Source: an uncultured archaeon (GTDB lineage: Archaea; Asgardarchaeota; Lokiarchaeia; Sigyniarchaeales; SOKP01). From it: a stretch of DNA of 10,657 nt. The notes below the pieces were generated by a model. The model was given only the letters and a program-made list of their open reading frames with translations, made no database searches and had not been told where the DNA came from. Position numbers and translations under genes: made by a program. This document shows, one piece after another, positions 250 to 10,309 of this stretch. How positions within the stretch are numbered: the stretch's first letter is position 1; every line of letters starts with the position of its first letter. The stretch lies in NCBI GenBank assembly GCA_964583985.1, contig CAZOYD010000096.1, positions 1-10,657 of the forward strand, given 5' to 3'.

Positions 250-1395
250 TTACATGAATTGCTTTTGACTTAACCAGAAGAATAAATCGCCAATAATCAC
301 ATATTTATTCCGATTGGTTTTCAATTCACTTAAATTTTTTAAATTCATCAACCACATACTCGAGCGTAATTCATTTTTCAAAGTTCTTATTTCTCTTACC
401 GTATTTGATATCGTTTTGTTTTTTCTATCTTGCCATGCGGATTTTAAGAATTTGTAAGCAAATCCCCCAATGTCAGCTCCTAAAGCAATGGATTTTGCGA
501 TGTCAATTCCAGTTTTCAATCCTCCTGTAGCAATAATTAGTTTTTGCGAAACTGAACGAACATTAATGGTGCTTACAGGAGTAGGAATTCCCCATTCCCT
601 AAATACATCAGCAGGATTACGAGAATATTTATCATTATCAAAATTCTTACGTTTTGACTCAATCGCAGCGAAACTGGTACCACCAGACCCTCCAACATCA
701 AATCCATCAAAACCAAGTTCATCAAGCATCAGTGCAACTTCTTTATTTAATCCCGAACCCACTTCTTTCGCGATGAAAGGAATATCAGTGCTTTCCCTAA
801 TTTTCTCGAAATTTTGCTTGAAATTTTTATATGAAATATTTCCCTCATCTTGAACAAGTTCATGTAATGCGTTCAAGTGGATAGCCATTACATCCGCCTC
901 TATCATATCAATACAATCAGATAAATCTTCTTCTTTGAAATTGGTAGAACTTATTTGACCTAACCCTAAATTGCCAATTACAGGAACCGAAGGAGCATAC
1001 TCGCGTACTATTTTAAAAGAGTCGACGGTAGATAGATCTTCTAATCCAATTCGCTGACTTCCAACGCTCATGACAACATTTTCTTTTTCAGCAGCTTTGG
1101 CAAGGATTTCATTAATTTCCCTTGATAAAGGATGACCTCCAGTTATGGCAGAAATGCAAATAGGCGCTGAAATTTTTTTTTTGAAAAAATTAATTGTGAG
1201 ATTAATTTCCTCCAGATCAATCTCGGGAATGGCATGATGAATCAATTTGATATCTTTAAAATAGTTAACAGAATGTTGCACGTCATATTCAAGAGGAATC
1301 GTTATATGTTCTTCCTTTCTATTTAAAATGTTTTTGGTTTGTTTTGGTCCGGGCATGGTTTGATTTTCAAAATTGCTTTTAGTCATATTATTCAT
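250..1395 (-). CDS. fni: Type 2 (FMN-dependent) isopentenyl-diphosphate delta-isomerase
   Basis: IDI-2 motifs RKEEHI, ISAITGG (MTGG-like), VGSQR, GNLG, HLNxxxE, AKEVGSG, DVGGSGGTSFAAIE, WGIPT, ATGGLKTGIDIAKSIALGA. The ATG overlaps the ipk stop; alternative starts at downstream ATGs are possible. Confidence 0.95.
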   Translation of the reverse strand: MNNMTKSNFENQTMPGPKQTKNILNRKEEHITIPLEYDVQHSVNYFKDIKLIHHAIPEIDLEEINLTINFFKKKISAPICISAITGGHPLSREINEILAKAAEKENVVMSVGSQRIGLEDLSTVDSFKIVREYAPSVPVIGNLGLGQISSTNFKEEDLSDCIDMIEADVMAIHLNALHELVQDEGNISYKNFKQNFEKIRESTDIPFIAKEVGSGLNKEVALMLDELGFDGFDVGGSGGTSFAAIESKRKNFDNDKYSRNPADVFREWGIPTPVSTINVRSVSQKLIIATGGLKTGIDIAKSIALGADIGGFAYKFLKSAWQDRKNKTISNTVREIRTLKNELRSSMWLMNLKNLSELKTNRNKYVIIGDLFFWLSQKQFM

Positions 1396-2203
1396 TAATT
1401 AATATATTTGTACAATTAAATCTTTGATTCTTTAATGATTTATAGATATATCCTTCAGTTAATCCATTTATCAATTGAACGGGTATGTTTAATTCGCATA
1501 TTTTTTTGATTTGAGTAAGCTTACTCTCGATTCCACCAGTTACATCTATCTTTTGACCGAGATCTGCCAAAATTATGTTGTTAAGCTCACTAGAATAGCA
1601 TTCAGTAAGAAATTTACAATTATTACTTTCTAACTCATCCACTTTATATAATCCATCAGATTCCATTGCGAAAATTACTTTAGATATGTTATAACTTTTA
1701 AGAGATTCGCATAATTTTAGAATAATCTCATCTCCTGAAAGTATCGTAAATGATCCGCTTTTATCAAGCATGATATCGCCATATAAAATTGGCATGATTT
1801 TAAGGTCTAATGCAGTTTCAAGAACATCTAAAGTTTCCAATGAAATTGTGTTTGATTTCTTAATAAAAATACTTGAAGTTTGAATTGATAGAACGGGATA
1901 ATTTCTCTCTAAAAATTGTTCAATTACATATGAGTTGAATTTTATCATTGAATGATGAGTTTTCGCTACTCCAAGAATTTGATTTGGTATGGATTTATCA
2001 ATTCCATTTGAAACACTATATTTCTTTGCTAATGGATGACCAAACGAGCCACCACCGTGAAGTAGAATGATCTTTTCATTAGCATCGACTATTTGTTTAA
2101 CTGCACTTGTAATAATGTCTTCTCTTATTGAAAAGGGATTATTTTTATCAGTAAGTAACCCTCCTCCTAATTTTAAAAGAATTACGCTATATTTTGTGTT
2201 CAA
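1388..2203 (-). CDS. ipk: Isopentenyl phosphate kinase (amino-acid kinase family)
   Basis: LKLGGGLLTDK, HGGGSFGH with the IPK signature His, PILYGD, ILSGD, DVTGGIESKL. TTG start. Located between mvk and fni. Confidence 0.93.
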   Translation of the reverse strand: MNTKYSVILLKLGGGLLTDKNNPFSIREDIITSAVKQIVDANEKIILLHGGGSFGHPLAKKYSVSNGIDKSIPNQILGVAKTHHSMIKFNSYVIEQFLERNYPVLSIQTSSIFIKKSNTISLETLDVLETALDLKIMPILYGDIMLDKSGSFTILSGDEIILKLCESLKSYNISKVIFAMESDGLYKVDELESNNCKFLTECYSSELNNIILADLGQKIDVTGGIESKLTQIKKICELNIPVQLINGLTEGYIYKSLKNQRFNCTNILINE

Positions 2204-2216
2204 TTTTGATATACAC

Positions 2217-3183
2217 TCATCCTATCATTGTTTTCCAGGATTCATACCCATCCCTTTTAATGGCATTGAAGATTTTTTCTTGTATTTTTTCATTTTCAGC
2301 TAATGCAATAACTAATCCTCCACGCCCAGTCCCAGTCACTTTGGCTCCGAGTGCTCCATTATTTAATCCAATATCTACTAATTTATCGATAATTTCACTT
2401 GATACAGTGATATCTTGAAGTAATTTATGATTTTGGGTCATTAATTTACCTATTAGCTTTATATCGCTTTTTAATAACGCTTTCTTAGCTTCTTCAGAGA
2501 GAACTTTATATTTCTTGAATATTTCTTCAAATTTTTCAGGATTTTTTTCTTTTAAACGTCTAACATCAGCGACCACTTCTGCAGTTGATGCCGTGATTCC
2601 AGTGTTTGCGATTATTAAAGGGATTTTTTCAGGTGATTGGAGAATTTCCATTGTATTTTTTCCACCCTCTAAATTCTTCACAAACCAGATTAATCCTCCA
2701 TAAGTTGAAGCTGTATTATCTATTCCTGAAGGAGTTCCATGATATGCTCTTTCTCCTTCATATGATGCTTGGTTTATCATTTCATCATCCAACATTAGCG
2801 TAAAAGTATCATTTATTGCCCGTGCAAGTGAAGTAGATTGAGCAGCAGAAGCACCAACCCCGCTAGCGGCAATTAAATTTCCAGAAAATGTTATTTCAAT
2901 TTTCTGAGAATCAACATCTATATGCAAGTATTTAATAACATTTTGAATAGATTGCATGGATTCGTTAAATTTTTGTTCCTTATATCCTGGAGTAGCAAGG
3001 CGTTGATCGTGAACTTCCCATCCTTTTCCGTCAATAATTTTGACCTCAGCAATAGTATAAGAACTCAATGCTGATGCGATTGCAGGAAGACCATAAACCA
3101 CAAAATGATAACGTTAATTCCTGAATTGGGAATTAAATTTCGCCAAATAATATAGTCTTTCCATATCCTATTCCAGTTCCCAA
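2217..3183 (-). CDS. mvk: Mevalonate kinase, split gene: complement(join(2217..3107,3139..3183)), about 311 aa after removing a 31-nt insert
   Basis: Exon 1 (TTG at 3183; in-frame TTGs at 3192 and 3195 also possible) reads MGTGIGYGKTILFGE. Exon 2 begins HFVVYGLPAIASAL. Joining them restores GHMP motif I (GKxILFGEHxVVYG). The remainder has motif II (AASGVGASAA), HGTPSGIDN and motif III (GAKVTGTGRGG). The ORF-track call starting at GTG 3101 lacks motif I. Confidence 0.9.
3108..3138 (-). other. Putative 31-nt archaeal bulge-helix-bulge-type intron in the mvk mRNA
   Basis: Minus-strand read: ...TTT GGC GAA [ATTTAATTCCCAATTCAGGAATTAACGTTAT] CAT TTT GTG.... The insert is 31 nt (not a multiple of 3) and has an immediate in-frame TAA. 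It contains the hairpin TTAATTCC/GGAATTAA with a 7-nt loop, and a 4-bp central helix GGCG/CGTT with 3-nt bulges AA^A and AT^C whose canonical cut positions equal the frame-restoring junctions. Confidence 0.8.
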
Positions 3184-3195
3184 TTTCTTCAACAA

Positions 3196-3316
3196 TTCCT
3201 GATATATGATTTAATATAATTTAAGGAAAATTATTATTTTGATTGAATTACATTAATCGGTTTTTTACTTAAATAATTTTTACCAATATTTAAAAAATTG
3301 GATATGATAACAATCT
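3196..3316 (-). promoter_or_regulatory. Possible internal promoter for mvk-ipk-fni
   Basis: About 120-nt AT-rich gap in an otherwise tightly packed run. The minus strand has AAAAATTATTTAAGTA (BRE/TATA-like, about 3266-3281) and an AGGA SD-like word at 3197-3200. Confidence 0.3.
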
Positions 3317-3703
3317 TTAGATGGTAACAATACCATCGTCACCATTAACAATTAACTTTTGTCCCGTTTTTATTCTTTCAATATCAATCTTATCCACACA
3401 TGGAATCTCACTGATTATGCAACCGACAGCGATGATAGTATCGATTTCTTTATTAATAATTGCTATTGGGGCTGTATTATTTTTCTTCATCCGATACATG
3501 GTATATGAACCTACGGTTGATCCTTTACCAGTAGGGAAGACTAAAACTTTTCCTGTTACAGACTGACCTTCAAGTTCGTGTCCAACCTCAACTACTTTAC
3601 CGGTATCGGGATCAACACCACCATAAAAGGAAATTCCATCATTAGTCACTATAGCTTCTCCTTCAGCCATTCCCTTATATATTTTTCTCCCTGTAAGCTT
3701 CAC
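3317..3703 (-). CDS. Phosphomevalonate dehydratase small subunit (AcnX swivel domain, DUF126)
   Basis: 128 aa with ISFYGGVDPDTG, GKVLVFPTGKGSTVGSY (conserved GxGST Ser motif) and IIAVGCIISEIP. The GTG start overlaps the TGA of the large subunit (GTGA), suggesting translational coupling. Confidence 0.9.
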   Translation of the reverse strand: MKLTGRKIYKGMAEGEAIVTNDGISFYGGVDPDTGKVVEVGHELEGQSVTGKVLVFPTGKGSTVGSYTMYRMKKNNTAPIAIINKEIDTIIAVGCIISEIPCVDKIDIERIKTGQKLIVNGDDGIVTI

Positions 3704-4893
3704 TTCAACGCCTCCTCAACGCAATCTTCAATCGTTCCAATTTTAACCTTAAATTTATTTTTAGCTCGACCATAATAACACGCTTTTGCCGAATCAACCA
3801 TTATCCCTTTAAAGCGTCCCTTAATGGGCGCTACCACACAACAAGTATCCGCAGCAAATTTTGCTCCAGCATCTTCAATCATTTTAGAATAGCCTGCTTC
3901 ATCAGCAATTTTTTTAGTAGGTCGAGCAGTAGTAATCCAAAATTCTTTTTTGACAGTTTTTCCATCTAATAATTGTGATAGAATTGCAATTTCGTGAATT
4001 GATGCGTGGGGACATCCTATACTGACAAAATCAATTTCAATATCATCATCAATAAGATCAGCCCGAGCTTTTTTCATGTCATTTTGACTAATCTCAAACA
4101 TAAGTTTGCTCGGTTTGGGATAGTTATTATATTCTGGGGTGATTCCATCCATGTGGAATAAAGCTGTTCCGCCATAAGTCGCCACTGAAGCACAAAAAGA
4201 TTTAAGCTCTTCGATTGTTGCTGAAGGAATTCCAACAATATATGGAATTTTTTTTCCCAATTCGCCCAATTTATCGCCAATTAATTTTCCTAACACTCCA
4301 AATTCATCTGTACCTTTAATTGGTGTGTTTACTTTAACAAGTACTTGACCATAACGATTTTTATCTAAATGATATCCATAATTAGGCGTCTTTCCTGTTA
4401 ACGCCGAAGCTAGCGCGCTTGGTCCACCTTCTCGATTTGTTCGAGCACCTATTACAGAATTTGAATAACAAACAGCACTACTTTCTGCCCATGCAATATG
4501 TTGTCCGTAATGTGGGTTGTTCCCAATAAGGTAGGGAGTACAAGAACAAGTAGTTACAATTCCCATCTTAGCAAAAGCATCAATTGCTCGATTTTGATTT
4601 ATGGCAAATTCTTCGTCTATCCCTAAAGCTCGCCAATTTTCGCGATCCATCCCTGCAGGATTTAATGTTGTTAACACTCTAACTTTTCCATCTTTAGCCA
4701 TTTCATTTAGAAATTCTAATCCTGCTTCGCCAAGATTGTCATATGAGACACCTGCTATTTGAACGCCAAAAACATCGATCATGTTCTCTGCATCAAAAAT
4801 CTCACCCAAAGTAGTTAATATCTCCATGGATTTTTGTGTAGCTTTTCCATATTTCCCATCGAGCATGTCCTTCTCTTCTTGATTTAATTTCAT
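3700..4893 (-). CDS. Phosphomevalonate dehydratase large subunit (aconitase X catalytic domain, DUF521; Fe-S)
   Basis: Motifs AGVSY, TTLNP, CSCTPY, AWAESSAV, NSVIGARTNREGGP, IGCPHAS and DTCCVVAP provide the AcnX Cys ligands. ATG 4893 is preferred over GTG 4902 because AGGAGTGA (SD-like) lies just upstream of the ATG. Confidence 0.92.
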   Translation of the reverse strand: MKLNQEEKDMLDGKYGKATQKSMEILTTLGEIFDAENMIDVFGVQIAGVSYDNLGEAGLEFLNEMAKDGKVRVLTTLNPAGMDRENWRALGIDEEFAINQNRAIDAFAKMGIVTTCSCTPYLIGNNPHYGQHIAWAESSAVCYSNSVIGARTNREGGPSALASALTGKTPNYGYHLDKNRYGQVLVKVNTPIKGTDEFGVLGKLIGDKLGELGKKIPYIVGIPSATIEELKSFCASVATYGGTALFHMDGITPEYNNYPKPSKLMFEISQNDMKKARADLIDDDIEIDFVSIGCPHASIHEIAILSQLLDGKTVKKEFWITTARPTKKIADEAGYSKMIEDAGAKFAADTCCVVAPIKGRFKGIMVDSAKACYYGRAKNKFKVKIGTIEDCVEEALK

Positions 4894-4904
4894 GTCAATC
4901 ACTC

Positions 4905-6212
4905 CTATTGATTAAAATATTTCTGAAGATCTACTTGAGGAAAATTAGCTCTTTCGAAACTTTTGCCTTTTGCTATTAAAGGTTTAGTTAAATCAAATCC
5001 CATTTTAGTTGTCATTTTCGTTCCTAATTCTGCGCTAGGATCTAAACTACTTCCAGGTTCTTTATCTTTAATTATCAAATCAACATCGCCTTGAAAGCGA
5101 GTTGCCATTGCCCATTCCACAGATAATGGGTTGTAAATATCAATATCTTTATCAACGATAAACACGTGTTTGCAACTTGTATGACCAATAAAAGCACCTT
5201 TTATTGCTTTTTCACCATCTGCTTCTGATTTTTTATCAATTTGTACAATAGCATGTAGCCATGAGCACCCTCCTGGATTGACATTTACATCTAAACATTT
5301 AACCCCAGCTTCGTTCACTTTATTAAAAATAGTGGGTTCTCTCGGCATGCCCATCAATAGCTTATGCTCAAGCGCACCGGGTAATAAAGCTTGCCAAATT
5401 GCATCCTTTCGATGAGTTATTTTTTTCACTTCAAAAACTGGTTCTTCTCTTACAATGTCATAAGTTTCTGTTAAGTCGACAAAAGGGCCTTCAGCGTGTC
5501 TTTCTTCCAAAAAAACTCGCCCTTCTAATACAAATTCTGCTTCTGCAGGAATTAAAAGATCAACTGAATTTGCTTTAACAACTTTTATTGGTTCTAATGC
5601 ATTTGCAATATGTAATTCATCAACTCCAATATCCACAGAGGTTGCTCCAGCAATTAGAATGTTAGGTGTATTGCCTATGCAAAAAGCAACATCCAATTCG
5701 TTATTTTTTTTTAAAAATGCATCAAAATGGCGCCCACTGACTATTCGAGTGGAAAATTTGTTTTTAGAAATTTGCATGGCACGATGAAAATCCATATTTT
5801 GGCCATAGTCGGGGTCTCTTGTGATCACAACAGCAGAACTTATATAGTTTCCCCCATCTTTTTCGCAATGAAATAAAATAGGTAATTTGTCTAAATCTAC
5901 ACTTGATTCTATCACTTCTTGACAAGGAGCGTTTGAAACGATTTGCGGCGGTGAACGTTCAATAATCGCTTTTGAAAGCATTGGTATGATGTCTGCGGGA
6001 GTTACATTAAAATATGAAGCAATTACATTTTTGGTACAGAACATGTTACCAACTACCCGGAATTTAGATTCTTTTACATTATTAAACATTAAGGGAGTTG
6101 GTTCCTTCTCTTTTAATATTCCAGAAATTTCTAAATTCTTTGAAGTCTCAACATTTACCTTTTGGATCAGTCCTTTCTCATCAATATTATTTATATAATC
6201 TCTAAAACCCAT
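4905..6212 (-). CDS. UbiD-family prFMN-dependent decarboxylase, probably anhydromevalonate phosphate decarboxylase
   Basis: UbiD motifs DLDKLPIL, DGGNYISS, FHR, PAEAEFVLEG, EGPFVD, VDKDIDIYN, VEWAMATRFQ, SSLDPS, KMGFDLT. The specific function is inferred from adjacency to the AcnX pair, mvk and ipk. ATG 6212 (preceded by AAGGA) is preferred; GTG 6224 is the alternative. Confidence 0.88.
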   Translation of the reverse strand: MGFRDYINNIDEKGLIQKVNVETSKNLEISGILKEKEPTPLMFNNVKESKFRVVGNMFCTKNVIASYFNVTPADIIPMLSKAIIERSPPQIVSNAPCQEVIESSVDLDKLPILFHCEKDGGNYISSAVVITRDPDYGQNMDFHRAMQISKNKFSTRIVSGRHFDAFLKKNNELDVAFCIGNTPNILIAGATSVDIGVDELHIANALEPIKVVKANSVDLLIPAEAEFVLEGRVFLEERHAEGPFVDLTETYDIVREEPVFEVKKITHRKDAIWQALLPGALEHKLLMGMPREPTIFNKVNEAGVKCLDVNVNPGGCSWLHAIVQIDKKSEADGEKAIKGAFIGHTSCKHVFIVDKDIDIYNPLSVEWAMATRFQGDVDLIIKDKEPGSSLDPSAELGTKMTTKMGFDLTKPLIAKGKSFERANFPQVDLQKYFNQ

Positions 6213-6254
6213 AATTTCCTTCACATATTTCGTTAATTATATTACATTTATCAA

Positions 6255-7526
6255 TTATCTTTCCACTAATTTATTTAATATCTTTTTTGCATGATCAACT
6301 CGGATTTTACCATCTTGAACTAACTGTTTCGCAACTTTTTCTACTAACTCATCTGGAACTCCAGCTGATTTTGCGATATTTCTTGAATGCAATATCATGT
6401 GCCCCCGTTGTATCCCCTCGGCAGCTAAAGCTCTTAATGCTGCTACATTTTGAGCTAAACCTAACGCGGCTGCAATTTGAGATAACTCTCCAGCACTCTT
6501 AACTCCTAAAATTTTTAGTGCCAAGCGTGCCATGGGATGAATTTTTGTCATTCCTCCAACAATACCTAAAGCTAAAGGAATTTCTATTTCTCCAACTAAA
6601 TTTCCATTTGAGTCTGATTCAAATTTTGTGAGGGGTTTATATTTCCCACTTAAGGAAGCATAGGCATGGGCTCCAGCCTCAATAGCACGAGTGTCATTCC
6701 CCGTTGCTAAGGTTAATGCAATTATCCCATTCATTATTCCTTTATTATGTGTTGTTGCCCTATATGGATCAGCGAGCGCAAATTCATAAGCATTCAATAT
6801 ACCTTCCACTACTTCTTCTCCGCCTAACATTTCCTTATCAAAAATTGCTTTACATCGTGCAATTCGATGAGTAGCCAAGTTTGATACGATTCGAAGATAT
6901 ATTTTCCCACCAGTAATTTCTTCTATATAAGGACTAACGGCTTCAGCCATTGTATTTACTACATTGGCGCCCATCGCGTCTAAAACATCAACCAAAAGAT
7001 GAAGAATTACCATCTTGCCTTTATTTGTTTCTAACTCTCGAATCTCAACATCTAATGCACCACCACCTAACTTAATTAGTAAGGGGTCTTGTTCGTTTGC
7101 AATTTTTAAGATTTCTTCCCGGTTCCTTTTTAAAATTTCCTTAACAGCAGTAGTATCTTTTAATTGAGTTATTTGAATTTGGGAAATCATGATTGATCTA
7201 ACTTCTTCAGAGTGAAATCCTCCATTTTTTCGTGCAATCTTAGCTGCGTTAGAAGCAGCGGCAACAACTGAAGGTTCTTCAATAACCATTGGTAAAAAAT
7301 AATCTTTTCCGTTGATCTTAAAGTTCAAGGCAATTCCTAACGGCAATTGATAACTCCCAATTACGTTTTCTATTAACGTATCAATTTGAGTTGGGCTAAA
7401 ATATCCCAGATTTTGCAATAATTCAACTTCTTCTTGTTCTAAGTCGAGAAATTTTGTTAATTGATCCCGACGTTCTTTTAGTGATAATTTATAAAAACCT
7501 GATATATTTGAAGTAAAATCTCTCAT
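6255..7526 (-). CDS. mvaA: HMG-CoA reductase, class II (bacterial/Archaeoglobus type)
   Basis: SGFYKLS, IENVIG, EEPSVVAAAS, DAMGAN, LRIVSNL, RATTHNKGIMNGI, GNDTRAIEAGAH and GIQRGHM with the C-terminal flap are class II signatures. Confidence 0.95.
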   Translation of the reverse strand: MRDFTSNISGFYKLSLKERRDQLTKFLDLEQEEVELLQNLGYFSPTQIDTLIENVIGSYQLPLGIALNFKINGKDYFLPMVIEEPSVVAAASNAAKIARKNGGFHSEEVRSIMISQIQITQLKDTTAVKEILKRNREEILKIANEQDPLLIKLGGGALDVEIRELETNKGKMVILHLLVDVLDAMGANVVNTMAEAVSPYIEEITGGKIYLRIVSNLATHRIARCKAIFDKEMLGGEEVVEGILNAYEFALADPYRATTHNKGIMNGIIALTLATGNDTRAIEAGAHAYASLSGKYKPLTKFESDSNGNLVGEIEIPLALGIVGGMTKIHPMARLALKILGVKSAGELSQIAAALGLAQNVAALRALAAEGIQRGHMILHSRNIAKSAGVPDELVEKVAKQLVQDGKIRVDHAKKILNKLVER

Positions 7527-7562
7527 AAACTAACATCTCTTTAATCTAGTATAAAATTTGGA

Positions 7563-7651
7563 ATTCTATCATAATTCTTTTCAAGCTCTATTTTTAATTT
7601 AAATATGAGGAAATTAGGAATAGAAACTGACATTATTAAACATGATAGAAT
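7563..7651. repeat. Nested imperfect inverted repeat in the HMGS-HMGR spacer
   Basis: ATTCTATCAT (7563-7572) and ATGATAGAAT (7642-7651) form a perfect 10-bp inverted repeat. Inside it, TCTATTTTTAATTT (7587-7600) pairs with AAATTAGGAATAGA (7611-7624) at 12/14 Watson-Crick, around a 10-nt loop. Confidence 0.5.
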
Positions 7652-7660
7652 GATTTTAAT

Positions 7661-9295
7661 TTAGTAAACATTTTGGACAGGATAATAAATTGGACTCCAA
7701 TTTAACAATCCAATGGCATTAACATTAGTTTCATTCTTGTTTTCAATTCGCCGAATTTCATATTCTAATAAAGCACCTTCCTTTACATCTCCTGCAATTC
7801 TCACCAAGCCATTATAAAGGAAGCTAAGTTTGTTTTCATCGGGATTTACTTTAGGTTCTGACTTTAACACCGCATATAACGGAAAGAACTTCTTGTGAAA
7901 ACCTGAATGCCCTTTTGGGCAATGATTCAAACCAACTATATTTGGAATTATGCAGCCCTCATCACAAAAATGAAGGGTAAATCCGCGATTGTTATTATTT
8001 TTATGTTCTACAATTTTACCTAAAACTGTTTTCGGTGAGATTCTTCCTCCTTTTATTTGCTCGTACTCTTGAACGGTTTTTAACTCCTTATTATTGATGA
8101 AATCTTTAATCTGAGGAGATTGTCCTACAATCGTATTAAATCCTCGTTGAATTTTTAACAATCCTGAAATACACGTGGCTCCCGAGCCATAAGAGCCGAA
8201 ATAGATAATATCGTTTGCACGCGCATACTCTTCTGCTATATACATTATTTGAGCCCAAATTGAGGCATTATACATGTTACCAAAATGTGAAGGAACTCGT
8301 AATTGGGGTAAAACTTTTCCTTTAATATTTCGAATTAATTTATAAGATATGGACTCTAAAGTCTCAGAGGAGTATCCTCGCTCTTTTAATTTTAAATATA
8401 ACCATTCAGGTAAAATGGTAATATCGTGCATAAAGGAATCTAATTTTTTAAGAATAGAAGCAGTGATTTGGTTTCTATTAAGTCTTGGAAGGTTATTAAT
8501 GTGTTTTATCCAACGCTTCTGAATTATTTGTTGCATGCATTTAATTGGTAATTTTGAAAAAGGGGCATGAAAAGTGTAAAAATCAGCGTGAAAATCCCCA
8601 ATATTGTTAACTAAATCATCGTATGCTTTCAATTGAAAATCAAGATATGTGTCCACCGAATATTGACCAAATACTTGAGCACAATTTTCATATGCAGGCC
8701 TGAAAAAATCATCTACATTTCCCGATACTTTCCCAAACTTCTCGCCAAATACTGCAACCCTAGGGTTTTTTGAAATTACAAAAGCAACGGCTCCTGAGCC
8801 TTGTGTTGCCTCACTTGGAGAACCCAGATGATAGGATGATATATCAGCGCTTATAACAAGAGCCTTTTTAATAATATCCTTTTCTACTAAAGCAATCGCG
8901 TTAAGAAGTGCAAGTGTGCCACCTGCGCATGCGTTATAAACATCTTGGCAGAAAGAATTGGGTGAAATTCCTAATAATTCAGCGAAAATATTCGATACAG
9001 ATTTCACGGCATATGTAATGGTTTCAGTTCCTACAAACAATGCATCAATGCTTTTTGGATCTATGTTTCCTTTTAATAGTGCTTGATATCCCGCTTTCAA
9101 TCCCAGAGATATAATATCTTCGTTAACCTCAGGCACTCTCATCTCGAGAGCCATCAAACCCTTTTTATATTTATTTGGATCAACTTTCCGCTCAATCGCA
9201 AGGTCTTTTAATTTTATATAGTATCTAGGGGCATAAAATCCCATAGAGTCAATACCGATGGAGGAAAACAATGAATTGTTCCGAATCATGTGCAA
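7661..9295 (-). CDS. mvaS: HMG-CoA synthase with an internal insertion and a C-terminal DUF35-like (Zn-ribbon + OB) extension
   Basis: Catalytic motifs VGTET (Glu), NACAGGT (Cys), FHAPF (His243), GNMY and GSYGSG. At 544 aa it is much longer than typical archaeal HMGS (about 350 aa). Start is TTG 9295 or ATG 9289. Confidence 0.88.
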   Translation of the reverse strand: MHMIRNNSLFSSIGIDSMGFYAPRYYIKLKDLAIERKVDPNKYKKGLMALEMRVPEVNEDIISLGLKAGYQALLKGNIDPKSIDALFVGTETITYAVKSVSNIFAELLGISPNSFCQDVYNACAGGTLALLNAIALVEKDIIKKALVISADISSYHLGSPSEATQGSGAVAFVISKNPRVAVFGEKFGKVSGNVDDFFRPAYENCAQVFGQYSVDTYLDFQLKAYDDLVNNIGDFHADFYTFHAPFSKLPIKCMQQIIQKRWIKHINNLPRLNRNQITASILKKLDSFMHDITILPEWLYLKLKERGYSSETLESISYKLIRNIKGKVLPQLRVPSHFGNMYNASIWAQIMYIAEEYARANDIIYFGSYGSGATCISGLLKIQRGFNTIVGQSPQIKDFINNKELKTVQEYEQIKGGRISPKTVLGKIVEHKNNNNRGFTLHFCDEGCIIPNIVGLNHCPKGHSGFHKKFFPLYAVLKSEPKVNPDENKLSFLYNGLVRIAGDVKEGALLEYEIRRIENKNETNVNAIGLLNWSPIYYPVQNVY

Positions 9296-9568
9296 AATCT
9301 CTTTTTTAATTGATTTTTATGGATTAACTGGAAAAATCGTTAATCTTATGTAATATTTATTTGTTCAAAAACTTATCTAGTTAAATGTTTATTTAAATAA
9401 GAAAATTGCCTTTATAATAATAATCATCAATTTACTAATTTCAATCATTCAGAATATTGAAATTAGGAATATAATCACAAGTGCAGAAATTTTTGTAAAC
9501 TTTAATATTTTTACGAGTATTAATATTAATGCTATTTCATTATTATATCATACTAATTTTTCGGTCAT
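9296..9568. promoter_or_regulatory. Divergent promoter region between the MVA cluster (minus) and uppS (plus)
   Basis: 273-nt very AT-rich gap between head-to-head genes with several TATA-like words (TTTATAA 9411-9417, TTTAATA 9501-9507). Exact elements cannot be assigned from sequence alone. Confidence 0.55.
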
Positions 9569-10309
9569 GTGAGTAAAAAAACAGTGGAAGGACAAGAAAA
9601 GATACCAGAGAAAAGGCTACCTCGCCATATTGGCTTAATACTTGATGGAAATCGTCGATGGGCAAAAAAAAATCTCCTCAGTCCCAATGTTGGCCACTTG
9701 GTGGGGTATAAGAATCTTCGAGAAAGACTGTTTGATTTTTTTGATGCTGGAATTAAATATTTATCAATTTACGCATTATCGTTAGAAAATGTTCGAAAAA
9801 GGAGTGATGCCGAAATAGAATACATTTTTGGCATTATTTTAGATGCAGTCGATGCAACCATCAAAGAAGCGACCGTAAAGGAGGAAAAAATTAATTTCAA
9901 TGTAATAGGACGAATATACTTGTTACCGAAAAGCGTACAAGAAAAAATTCAAGAACTGAAAGAATTTACAAAAGAACACGACCAAAAATTCATTAATTTA
10001 TGCATAATGTATGATGGACAAGAAGAAATCGTTGACGCTGTTAAATCGATAGTTAACGATAACATTCAATCAGATAAGATCAATAAAGATATAATAAAAA
10101 ATCATTTGTATACTCGAAACTTCCCTGAAGTCGATTATATAATTAGAACGGGAATGGAAGATGGAGCTAGAATTTCTGGATTTTTGTTATGGGATGCTTC
10201 TTATGCTGAGTTTAAATTTAGAACAGACTTATGGCCCGATTATGATAAAGTCATGGTTATAGAAGATTTACAAGATTATGTCAATCGAAATCGACGTAAG
10301 GGGAAGTAA
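9569..10309 (+). CDS. uppS: cis-prenyltransferase (UppS family; polyprenyl diphosphate synthase for the glycosyl carrier lipid)
   Basis: HIGLILDGNRRWA, GH--G, YALSLENVRKRS, YDGQEEI, DYIIRTG, RISGFLLW and a C-terminal RxG (RRKGK). GTG start; divergent from HMGS. Confidence 0.94.
   Translation: MSKKTVEGQEKIPEKRLPRHIGLILDGNRRWAKKNLLSPNVGHLVGYKNLRERLFDFFDAGIKYLSIYALSLENVRKRSDAEIEYIFGIILDAVDATIKEATVKEEKINFNVIGRIYLLPKSVQEKIQELKEFTKEHDQKFINLCIMYDGQEEIVDAVKSIVNDNIQSDKINKDIIKNHLYTRNFPEVDYIIRTGMEDGARISGFLLWDASYAEFKFRTDLWPDYDKVMVIEDLQDYVNRNRRKGK

What the first reader, a model, noticed from the sequence alone, without database searches (positions are those of the whole stretch)
3108..3138. Candidate bulge-helix-bulge mRNA intron splitting the motif I of mevalonate kinase
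Seen in sequence: on the minus strand, mvk reads TTG GGA ACT GGA ATA GGA TAT GGA AAG ACT ATA TTA TTT GGC GAA | 31 nt | CAT TTT GTG GTT TAT GGT. Removing exactly 3108..3138 gives MGTGIGYGKTILFGE-HFVVYGLPAIA, an intact GHMP motif I and a ~311-aa kinase. The RNA can fold as central helix GGCG (3144-3141) : CGUU (3113-3110) with two G-C and two G.U pairs; 5' bulge AAA (3140-3138); intron stem UUAAUUCC/GGAAUUAA (one extra U bulged) with loop CAAUUCA; and 3' bulge AUC (3109-3107) closed by a single U-A pair. Established knowledge: the archaeal tRNA splicing endonuclease (EndA) cuts after the 2nd nucleotide of each 3-nt bulge and RtcB ligates the exons. Applying that rule gives AA^A and AU^C, exactly the junctions that the protein motif independently requires. 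The best-characterised archaeal mRNA introns are in crenarchaeal cbf5; I know of none in an isoprenoid pathway gene. Inference: this is a spliced protein-coding intron, and if the host is an Asgard archaeon it bears on the origin of non-spliceosomal mRNA splicing (compare RtcB/Trl1-ligated XBP1/HAC1 introns).
Basis: partly seen in the sequence, partly recalled or inferred. Interest (0 to 1): 0.95.

Follow-up and report, generated by a model that had tools for sequence, protein, structure and literature searches.

The report
tRNA-type mini-intron splits Asgard mevalonate kinase
The only mevalonate kinase gene of this Asgard archaeon, needed to make its membrane lipids, is cut inside its catalytic motif by a 31-base insert shaped like a tRNA intron; 54 of 91 related genomes keep the insert at the same spot, so the messenger RNA almost certainly has to be cut and rejoined by the tRNA-splicing enzymes, which the papers I searched report inside an archaeal coding sequence for only one other gene (cbf5).

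Summary
On the minus strand, mvk reads start 3183 to GAA 3139, then a 31-nt insert (3138-3108), then CAT 3107 to the stop at 2217. Removing exactly those 31 nt restores GKTILFGE|HFVVYG and a 311-aa kinase.

- In the host's family, 54 of 91 scorable orthologues carry a 28-31-nt insert at the same codon boundary, and 37 lack it exactly.
- Basal lineages all carry the insert, which fits one gain and at least 7 exact losses.
- Both exons are under purifying selection (dN/dS about 0.1).
- The fold is a 4-position central helix, a 3-nt bulge and an 8-bp hairpin. It is kept in 84% of cells against 41-48% in shifted controls, with compensating changes.
- Only intron-bearing alleles freeze synonymous sites next to the junction. 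They also keep an 11-bp exon-exon clamp helix.
- The genome has two EndA paralogues, one catalytic with the broad-specificity loop, plus RtcB and no second true MVK.

Weak points:
- The motif is relaxed (HBh').
- It is not the minimum-energy fold in this genome.
- The bare motif is as common as chance expects.
- No RNA data were available.

The scan had already noted similar mini-introns in other genes of this same genome. I re-checked one of them, RNase HII.

The parts
3139..3183 (-). mvk exon 1: TTG start (3183-3181) plus 14 codons ending GAA (Glu of the GEH motif). It carries the catalytic Lys and Glu of GHMP motif I.
   Evidence: The homologous start and upstream GGTGA-like Shine-Dalgarno are kept in relatives. 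Among the 13 intron-bearing orthologues of the first sample, pN is 0.049 against pS 0.376.
3108..3138 (-). 31-nt insert: a phase-0 mini-intron of the relaxed bulge-helix-bulge (HBh') type.
   Evidence: An insert of 28-31 nt sits at the same boundary in 54 of 91 family orthologues. Covariation is shown.
2217..3107 (-). mvk exon 2: 296 codons plus the stop, beginning CAT (His of GEH).
   Evidence: TIGR00549 scores 217.6 bits, above its cut-off. dN/dS against relatives is 0.08-0.16.
3141..3144 (-). Central helix H, 5' strand (GGCG, in exon 1). The Gly codon's third base C3142 pairs with G3112.
   Evidence: the pair is C-G in 47 sequences, U-A in 4, U-G in 1, and never broken; the Gly codon is GGC 49 / GGT 5 in intron-bearing alleles, but uses all four codons in intronless ones.
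3110..3113 (-). Central helix H, 3' strand (CGUU, at the intron's 3' end).
   Evidence: The outermost pair is G.U here and in 18 of 52 sequences, G.A in 33 of 52.
3137..3140 (-). 5' bulge A A | A (+U3137). The predicted cut is between 3139 and 3138.
   Evidence: The bulge has 3 nt in most orthologues and 4 nt in this genome.
3114..3136 (-). Intron hairpin h': 8 bp (3136-3129 with 3121-3114) and a 7-nt loop (3128-3122).
   Evidence: The helix is 84.5% paired across 52 distinct sequences, and 4 pairs have changes on both sides.
3107..3109 (-). 3' bulge A U | C. The predicted cut is between 3108 and 3107.
   Evidence: It is closed by U3145-A3106. That U is the third base of the Phe codon: it is T in 54 of 54 intron-bearing alleles, against C 23 / T 12 in intronless ones.
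3151..3162 (-). Exon 1 strand of an exon-exon clamp helix (positions -24 to -13).
   Evidence: It pairs with 3095-3085 (11 of 11 pairs here). Across intron-bearing alleles the mean is 10.35 of 11 pairs and duplex energy -14.2 kcal/mol. Intronless alleles give 7.4 of 11 and -4.9.
3085..3095 (-). Exon 2 strand of the clamp helix (positions +13 to +23).
   Evidence: The synonymous sites at +15, +18, +19 and +21 are frozen only in intron-bearing alleles.

Best explanation
The 31 nt at 3138-3108 are an archaeal tRNA-type (bulge-helix-bulge class) intron inside the coding sequence of mevalonate kinase.

Proposed mechanism, which is inferred and not observed:
1. The pre-mRNA folds so that the last bases of exon 1 (GGCG) pair with the 3' end of the intron.
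2. A long intron hairpin stacks on one side of this helix.
3. An 11-bp exon 1-exon 2 clamp helix, 13-24 nt from each junction, holds the exons together on the other side.
4. The two-subunit splicing endonuclease EndA cuts 2 nt 3' of each strand of the central helix: AA|A at 3139/3138 and AU|C at 3108/3107.
5. RtcB joins the exons. The product reads ...TTTGGCGAA-CATTTTGTG... and encodes a 311-aa kinase with an intact GKTILFGEHFVVYG motif. A 31-nt, probably circular, intron is released.

Without splicing, translation stops two codons into the insert. The intron was probably gained once at the base of the host's family and has since been lost exactly many times.
For: Shown here:
- Removing exactly 3138-3108 restores the motif and the frame. 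The 311-aa product has the length of the intronless orthologues.
- 54 of 91 scorable orthologues in the family have an insert at the same codon boundary (50 of 31 nt, 3 of 30, 1 of 28). 37 orthologues, and the outgroup family, lack it exactly.
- In all 54 intron-bearing genes the exon 1 frame hits a stop in or just after the insert.
- Selection: exon 2 dN/dS is 0.08-0.16; exon 1 has pN 0.049 against pS 0.376.
- Structure over 52 distinct sequences: 84.4% of cells are paired, against 41-48% when partners are slid. The covariation score is 0.194 against 0.129 +/- 0.009, reached by 0 of 500 shuffles. Twenty-four cells are changed on both sides, against 8.6 +/- 2.5. The exon Gly codon's change from C to U is matched by G to A in the intron in 4 sequences, and no sequence breaks that pair.
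- Synonymous sites from about -37 to +21 are frozen only in intron-bearing alleles. Variation further into the gene is equal in both groups.
- The exon-exon clamp helix is kept only in intron-bearing alleles.
- The same cut rule reproduces canonical 37/38 introns in two tRNA-Ser genes of this genome.
- Machinery: there are two EndA paralogues. One is closest to the catalytic subunit of Aeropyrum pernix EndA and aligns through its specific loop. RtcB is present.
- Asgard EndA is reported as (alpha-beta)2 with the broad-specificity L1 loop (PMC5829648).
- This is the only MVK in the genome, and it sits inside a complete modified mevalonate operon.
- In the tree, basal lineages all carry the intron. 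At least 7 and up to 16 state changes are needed.
- A second gene of this genome, RNase HII, has a 30-nt hairpin insert with a stop inside its catalytic motif.
Against: - No transcript, cDNA or protein evidence was available.
- The motif is relaxed. The 3' bulge is closed by a single U-A pair.
- The outermost central-helix position is G.A in 33 of 52 sequences.
- This genome has a 4-nt 5' bulge.
- The required conformer lies above the predicted minimum-energy fold: median 1.75 kcal/mol over 54 sequences, and 4.9 here. A competing helix, GCGAAAU with AUUUUGU, is predicted instead.
- The bare motif is as frequent as in simulated sequence.
- Related sequences are not independent, so the shuffle statistics overstate significance.
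- A scan of JGI metagenome contigs for the spliced junction with intron-type flanks found nothing. This is uninformative, because those are DNA assemblies.
Confidence: 0.85

Rival explanations
1. The insert is removed or skipped by something other than EndA/RtcB. Candidates are translational bypassing (a ribosome hop as in T4 gene 60), programmed frameshifting, or an unknown RNA-processing activity.
For: The insert is a stable hairpin just after a conserved codon, with stops close to the take-off point. In some clades the exon 2 frame stays open backwards through the insert; 28 of 54 have no stop there.
Against: - No matching take-off and landing codons exist: GAA/GAG against AAT, TAT, TAA, AAA, TAG or TAC before CAT.
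- In this genome both relevant frames carry stops in an order that no single shift can avoid.
- In 26 of 54 sequences the exon 2 frame is also closed.
- The covarying helix joins exon bases to the intron's 3' end in exactly the EndA register. Bypassing would not need this.
Confidence: 0.06
2. The gene is disrupted. Intron-bearing lineages either make no MVK from it or make an N-terminally truncated enzyme from an internal start, such as GTG 3101.
For: - ORF callers see only a 294-aa frame from GTG 3101.
- This genome's mvk has a long terminal branch, 0.20-0.25 against 0.07-0.10 in its sisters.
- Start codons are often TTG, ACG or CTG.
Against: - dN/dS is about 0.1 in exon 2, and exon 1 is equally constrained.
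- The candidate GTG is GTA or GTT in most orthologues.
- Exon 1 keeps its Shine-Dalgarno, its frame and the Lys and Glu of motif I.
- Insert length is held at 28-31 nt over 54 species.
- No other MVK is present in a genome estimated 100% complete.
- ACG starts also occur in intronless genes.
Confidence: 0.04
3. The insert is an assembly or binning artefact, or a recent insertion by a mobile element.
For: The genome is a 138-contig assembly with 5% estimated contamination.
Against: - The same insert is present in 54 independently assembled genomes, with graded divergence.
- No other copy of it is found in the genome by blastn-short or by a covariance model.
Confidence: 0.01

Closest known systems
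BHB intron in the cbf5 (pseudouridine synthase) pre-mRNA of Desulfurococcales and Sulfolobales (Watanabe 2002; Yoshinari 2006; Yokobori 2009, PMC2738675)
   Same: - Both are short introns inside an archaeal coding sequence.
- Both have exon-intron boundaries that form a bulge-helix-bulge-type motif.
- Both hosts have hetero-oligomeric EndA.
- Both show one ancestral gain followed by lineage-specific exact losses.
   Different: - The gene differs (mvk, a lipid-precursor enzyme) and so does the phylum (Asgard).
- cbf5 of this genome is uninterrupted.
- The motif here is the relaxed HBh' form with a distal exon-exon clamp helix.
- Splicing here has not been shown experimentally.
- Losses are far more numerous: at least 7, against at least 2 for cbf5.
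Non-canonical (HBh') tRNA introns cut by broad-specificity (alpha-beta)2 or epsilon2 EndA (Marck and Grosjean 2003; PMC6379350; PMC5829648)
   Same: - Same geometry: a 4-position central helix, a 3-nt bulge, and a strong intron-side helix h'.
- The exon-side helix is weak or missing.
- Both cuts lie 2 nt 3' of the strands of the central helix, as in tRNA-Ser genes of the same genome.
   Different: The substrate is an mRNA with no tRNA body. The exon side is held by a helix made of coding sequence through synonymous codon choice.
BHB element in the 5' UTR of Haloferax volcanii HVO_1309 mRNA (PMC7714728)
   Same: An mRNA processed by the archaeal splicing endonuclease, shown there both in vivo and in vitro.
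   Different: That element lies in the untranslated leader. Here the insert breaks the reading frame inside a catalytic motif.
HAC1/XBP1 unconventional mRNA splicing in eukaryotes (IRE1 cleavage, RtcB or Trl1 ligation; from my own knowledge)
   Same: - A very short intron that is not a multiple of 3 (26 nt in XBP1).
- Its removal changes the frame.
- It is removed by a protein endonuclease and a tRNA ligase, without a spliceosome.
   Different: - The endonuclease is IRE1, not EndA.
- The substrate is a pair of stem-loops.
- Splicing is stress-regulated, which has not been tested here.

Membership tests
Archaeal EndA-dependent (bulge-helix-bulge class) intron | Strict hBHBh' motif: two 3-nt bulges on opposite strands, a 4-bp central helix, and outer helices on both sides. 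| tested here: not met
   - The 3' bulge is closed by only one U-A pair.
- The outermost central pair is G.U here and G.A in 33 of 52 orthologues.
- The 5' bulge has 4 nt in this genome.
Archaeal EndA-dependent (bulge-helix-bulge class) intron | Relaxed HBh' motif: a central helix, one well-formed 3-nt bulge and a flush intron helix (PMC6379350). | tested here: met
   Across 52 distinct sequences, 84.4% of cells are paired for H(4)-B(3)-h'(8), against 41-48% in slid controls. Covariation exceeds all 500 shuffles.
Archaeal EndA-dependent (bulge-helix-bulge class) intron | Cuts 2 nt 3' of each strand of the central helix give a functional product. | tested here: met
   - The predicted cuts 3139|3138 and 3108|3107 equal the only junction that restores GE|HF.
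- The same register gives canonical 37/38 introns in two tRNA-Ser genes of this genome.
Archaeal EndA-dependent (bulge-helix-bulge class) intron | The host encodes a splicing endonuclease of a broad-specificity type and an RtcB ligase. | tested here: met
   - Two EndA paralogues are over the Pfam and NCBIfam cut-offs.
- One aligns with the A. pernix catalytic subunit, including the loop region and the catalytic Tyr, His and Lys context.
- RtcB scores 557 bits.
- The role of the second paralogue as beta subunit is inferred only.
Archaeal EndA-dependent (bulge-helix-bulge class) intron | Excision and exon ligation are demonstrated at the RNA level. | not testable with these tools
   No transcript data were available. 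A scan of metagenome contigs for the spliced junction found nothing.
cbf5 intron lineage of Crenarchaeota | The intron lies in cbf5 and is homologous to the crenarchaeal one. | tested here: not met
   cbf5 of this genome is one open 343-codon frame with no stops inside the match. The mvk intron has no sequence relatives elsewhere in the genome.
Mevalonate kinase (TIGR00549) | A score above the equivalog cut-off and an intact GHMP motif I (GKxILFGEH). | tested here: met
   Exon 2 alone scores 217.6 bits against the 163 cut-off. Motif I is complete only after the 31 nt are removed.

The most novel reading that the evidence does not exclude
The mvk intron is one of many tRNA-type mini-introns in protein-coding genes of this Asgard family. 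mRNA splicing by EndA/RtcB would then be a routine, possibly regulated, step of gene expression in close prokaryotic relatives of eukaryotes. In mvk, the competing non-BHB fold and the clamp helix would act as a switch that ties isoprenoid lipid synthesis to the activity of the splicing machinery.
Probability: 0.2. Interest if true: 0.95.

Novelty: new member of a known kind. Interest (0 to 1): 0.8.

Why it matters
Mevalonate kinase is the single entry into the lower mevalonate pathway, so membrane lipid synthesis in these archaea would depend on mRNA splicing by the tRNA-splicing enzymes.

In the papers I could search, a coding-sequence intron of this kind is documented for only one archaeal gene, cbf5 (PMC2738675; PMC7714728 says so explicitly). 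Here the case rests on 91 orthologues with presence/absence polymorphism, compensating changes, and an exon-level signature (frozen synonymous sites and a clamp helix).

Four consequences follow:
- Gene callers truncate such genes.
- Exact intron loss is frequent in archaea.
- Coding sequence can be shaped by the needs of a splicing structure.
- In Asgard archaea it gives a concrete, testable substrate for asking how protein-only mRNA splicing (compare HAC1/XBP1 with RtcB) relates to the archaeal tRNA machinery.

Tried and rejected
- RNAalifold on a 13-sequence alignment with long exon flanks returned a structure driven by conserved exon sequence, with no compensating change. It did point to the clamp helix.
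- Pair counts on those 13 sequences were underpowered: 26 to 80 of 500 shuffles reached the observed values. This was resolved by collecting 54 sequences.
- A genome-wide scan for the motif found 2,951 hits against 2,822 simulated. Adding a crude filter for joined open frames gave 209 hits against about 173 at random positions. That is too noisy to list further introns.
- blastn-short and a covariance model of the mvk intron found no other copy in the genome: 64 bits for itself, and next best 17 bits at E about 6. The intron is therefore not a repeated element.
- A scan of metagenome contigs for the spliced junction returned nothing.
- No RVT_1 reverse transcriptase is present in this genome. 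The route of exact intron loss stays open.
- Frameshifting, ribosome hopping, an internal start, a pseudogene and an assembly artefact were considered and rejected (see the rival explanations).
- The GHMP paralogue on contig 1 (P0002) was considered as a second MVK and rejected. Its motif I reads ILGDKVD, it scores below the TIGR00549 cut-off, and classic archaeal MVKs from relatives hit the window gene best.

Full report
**What is in the sequence.** On the minus strand the window carries a complete modified (Aeropyrum-type) mevalonate operon. It holds HMG-CoA synthase, HMG-CoA reductase, a UbiD-type decarboxylase, both aconitase-X subunits, mevalonate kinase, isopentenyl phosphate kinase and IDI-2. 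A cis-prenyltransferase lies on the other strand.

The kinase gene is read as a 294-aa ORF from GTG 3101 by a mechanical ORF list. However, 45 nt further upstream (3183-3139) encode LGTGIGYGKTILFGE, and the frame from CAT 3107 encodes HFVVYGLPAIA... over 296 codons. The 31 nt between them (3138-3108) put a stop two codons into the exon 1 frame and shift the frame by +1. Removing exactly these 31 nt gives GKTILFGE-HFVVYG, the GHMP motif I, and a 311-aa product. That is the length of the open frame in intronless orthologues.

**The host.** The genome has 3.8 Mb in 138 contigs, with estimated completeness 100% and contamination 5%. The nearest named records for this gene are 'Promethearchaeota archaeon' and 'Candidatus Hodarchaeota archaeon' metagenome-assembled genomes, so it is an Asgard archaeon.

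It encodes two full-length EndA paralogues. One is closest to the catalytic subunit of the Aeropyrum pernix heterotetramer (3P1Z_B, 3AJV_B). It aligns through the region of the Crenarchaea-specific loop and keeps the catalytic Tyr, His and Lys context. The other is more divergent. RtcB is present. Published work reports (alpha-beta)2 EndA with the broad-specificity L1 loop across Asgard archaea (PMC5829648).

ARAGORN finds only 22 tRNA genes in this genome, 13 of them with introns. This fits the heavily interrupted tRNA genes reported for some Asgard archaea (bioRxiv 10.64898/2026.10.13.758758).

**Is the gene needed and alive?**
- Only the window gene passes the mevalonate kinase equivalog cut-off.
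- The best paralogue (P0002, contig 1) has ILGDKVD in place of ILFGEH.
- Classic archaeal MVKs taken from related genomes hit the window gene best.
- Exon 2 has dN/dS of 0.08-0.16 against 19 relatives.
- Among the 13 intron-bearing orthologues of the first sample, exon 1 has pN 0.049 against pS 0.376.
- A GGTGA-like Shine-Dalgarno and the start position are conserved upstream of exon 1.

**Comparative evidence.** I collected 93 orthologues from the host's family and read the site in 91 of them.
- 54 carry an insert at exactly the same codon boundary: 50 of 31 nt, 3 of 30 nt and 1 of 28 nt.
- 37 read GE-H without interruption, as do the two outgroup-family genes.
- In all 54 intron-bearing genes the exon 1 frame meets a stop in or just after the insert. 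All three 30-nt inserts carry in-frame stops.

On a tree of exon 2 rooted with the outgroup family, the earliest branches all carry the insert. The state changes at least 7 times across strongly supported branches and 16 times on the best tree. The simplest history is one gain at the base of the family and many exact losses. Recombination between species could reduce the number of independent losses, because the gene tree does not follow the genus labels. Every loss restores GAA|CAT precisely, so the boundaries deduced from the protein are also the boundaries at which the DNA has repeatedly been healed.

**RNA structure.** In most orthologues the local minimum-energy fold has four elements:
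- the last exon bases, G(G)CG, paired to CGC(U/A) at the intron's 3' end;
- a 3-nt bulge (two exon A's plus the first intron base);
- an 8-9-bp intron hairpin stacked directly on the central helix;
- a 3' bulge of two intron bases plus the first exon 2 base.

On 52 distinct sequences this structure is paired in 84.4% of cells, against 41-48% when partners are slid by 1-3 columns. It has 24 cells changed on both sides (8.6 +/- 2.5 in shuffles, 0 of 500 as high) and a covariation score of 0.194 against 0.129 +/- 0.009 (0 of 500). Relatedness inflates such numbers, so I treat them as support rather than as probabilities.

The clearest single case is the pair formed by the third base of the Gly codon. 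It is C-G in 47 sequences, U-A in 4, U-G in 1, and never broken.

The same register (cuts 2 nt 3' of each strand of the central helix) reproduces canonical 37/38 introns and 7-nt anticodon loops in two tRNA-Ser genes of this genome.

**A signature in the exons.** Synonymous sites from about -37 to +21 around the junction are nearly frozen in intron-bearing alleles and free in intronless ones.

| Site | Intron-bearing alleles | Intronless alleles |
|---|---|---|
| Phe codon | TTT 54 of 54 | TTC 23 / TTT 12 |
| Gly codon | GGC 49 / GGT 5 | all four codons |
| Lys codon | AAG 51 of 54 | AAA 20 / AAG 15 |
| Gly at +18 | T 47 of 54 | A 21 / T 8 |

Further into the gene both groups vary equally, so shared ancestry cannot explain the pattern.

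The frozen bases fit two features:
- The closing pair U3145-A3106.
- An 11-bp helix between exon 1 positions -24 to -13 (3162-3151) and exon 2 positions +13 to +23 (3095-3085).

This helix forms 10.35 of 11 pairs (duplex -14.2 +/- 2.1 kcal/mol) in intron-bearing alleles, against 7.4 of 11 (-4.9 +/- 3.1) in intronless ones. I read it as a distal substitute for the missing outer helix, clamping the two exons for cleavage and ligation. This is inference.

**Weak points.**
- The motif is the relaxed HBh' type, not a strict bulge-helix-bulge.
- The outermost central position is G.A in 33 of 52 sequences.
- This genome has an extra U in the 5' bulge.
- The required conformer lies above the predicted minimum (median 1.75 kcal/mol, and 4.9 here), because GCGAAAU can pair with AUUUUGU of exon 2.
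- A motif of this looseness is found 2,951 times in the genome against 2,822 in simulated sequence, so the shape alone proves nothing.
- No RNA data could be consulted, and a scan of JGI metagenome contigs for the spliced junction found nothing.

**Rivals.**
- Ribosome hopping lacks matching take-off and landing codons.
- Frameshifting cannot pass the stops in this genome or in 26 of the 54 sequences.
- An internal start is not conserved.
- A pseudogene is contradicted by the selection data.
- An artefact is excluded by 54 independent assemblies.
- A mobile repeat is excluded by the lack of other copies.

**Context and novelty.** In the library I could search, coding-sequence introns of this class are documented only for cbf5 of Crenarchaeota, plus a 5'-UTR element in Haloferax (PMC2738675, PMC7714728). 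cbf5 of this genome is uninterrupted.

Earlier notes of this scan report similar 28-35-nt inserts in other genes of this same genome: uL11, thiolases, cdhD, SCP2, nadE and RNase HII. I re-checked RNase HII and confirm a 30-nt in-frame hairpin insert with a TAA between DEAGR and GPVLGP. The others I did not test.

The mvk case is therefore a new member of a known kind, in a new phylum and a new pathway. It has unusually rich comparative support and an exon-level clamp that I have not seen described.

Noticed in passing
window 250-10309: The whole modified (Aeropyrum-type) mevalonate pathway sits in one co-oriented cluster: HMGS (a long 544-aa form), HMGR, a UbiD-type decarboxylase, AcnX large and small subunits, MVK, IPK and IDI-2. 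A divergent cis-prenyltransferase lies at 9569-10309.
   Followed up: partly
L016-L019, L073, L082, L087 (ACG); L014 (CTG); also the intronless L064 and L080: In 10 orthologues of this family the homologous mvk start codon is ACG, and in one it is CTG. All keep the GGTGA Shine-Dalgarno 5-6 nt upstream, often directly after the TAA stop of acnX-small. This suggests near-cognate initiation or translational coupling. It is not linked to the intron.
   Followed up: partly
own genome G000, whole: ARAGORN calls only 22 tRNA genes in a genome estimated 100% complete, 13 of them with introns. It mistypes one tRNA-Ser(UGA) as Thr. Most tRNA genes are probably interrupted at non-canonical sites or more than once.
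   Followed up: partly
G000:C1:127200-127829 (L054:2060-2125, minus strand): The RNase HII gene carries a 30-nt in-frame insert with a TAA and a 9-bp hairpin between DEAGR and GPVLGP of the catalytic motif.
   Followed up: partly
G000:C1:152530-153490 (P0002) and C1:155665-156978: An MVK-like GHMP kinase of unknown substrate (motif I reads ILGDKVD) lies about 2 kb from RtcB. I found no evidence of a functional link.
   Followed up: no
window 3184-3316: This genome has a 133-nt AT-rich spacer between acnX-small and mvk. In many relatives the two genes abut (TAA followed directly by ATG). The spacer occurs in several intron-bearing clades.
   Followed up: no
window 3101-3107 with 3137-3143: A competing helix (GCGAAAU of exon 1 and the intron start, with AUUUUGU of exon 2) is predicted to be more stable than the splicing-competent fold in this genome. 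It could be a kinetic trap or a switch.
   Followed up: partly
tree of 87 orthologues: The mvk gene tree does not follow the genus labels: sequences of the host's genus appear in several places. The host's own terminal branch is 2-3 times longer than those of its sisters, although dN/dS is low. Either recombination or transfer of mvk within the family, or poor resolution, could explain this.
   Followed up: no
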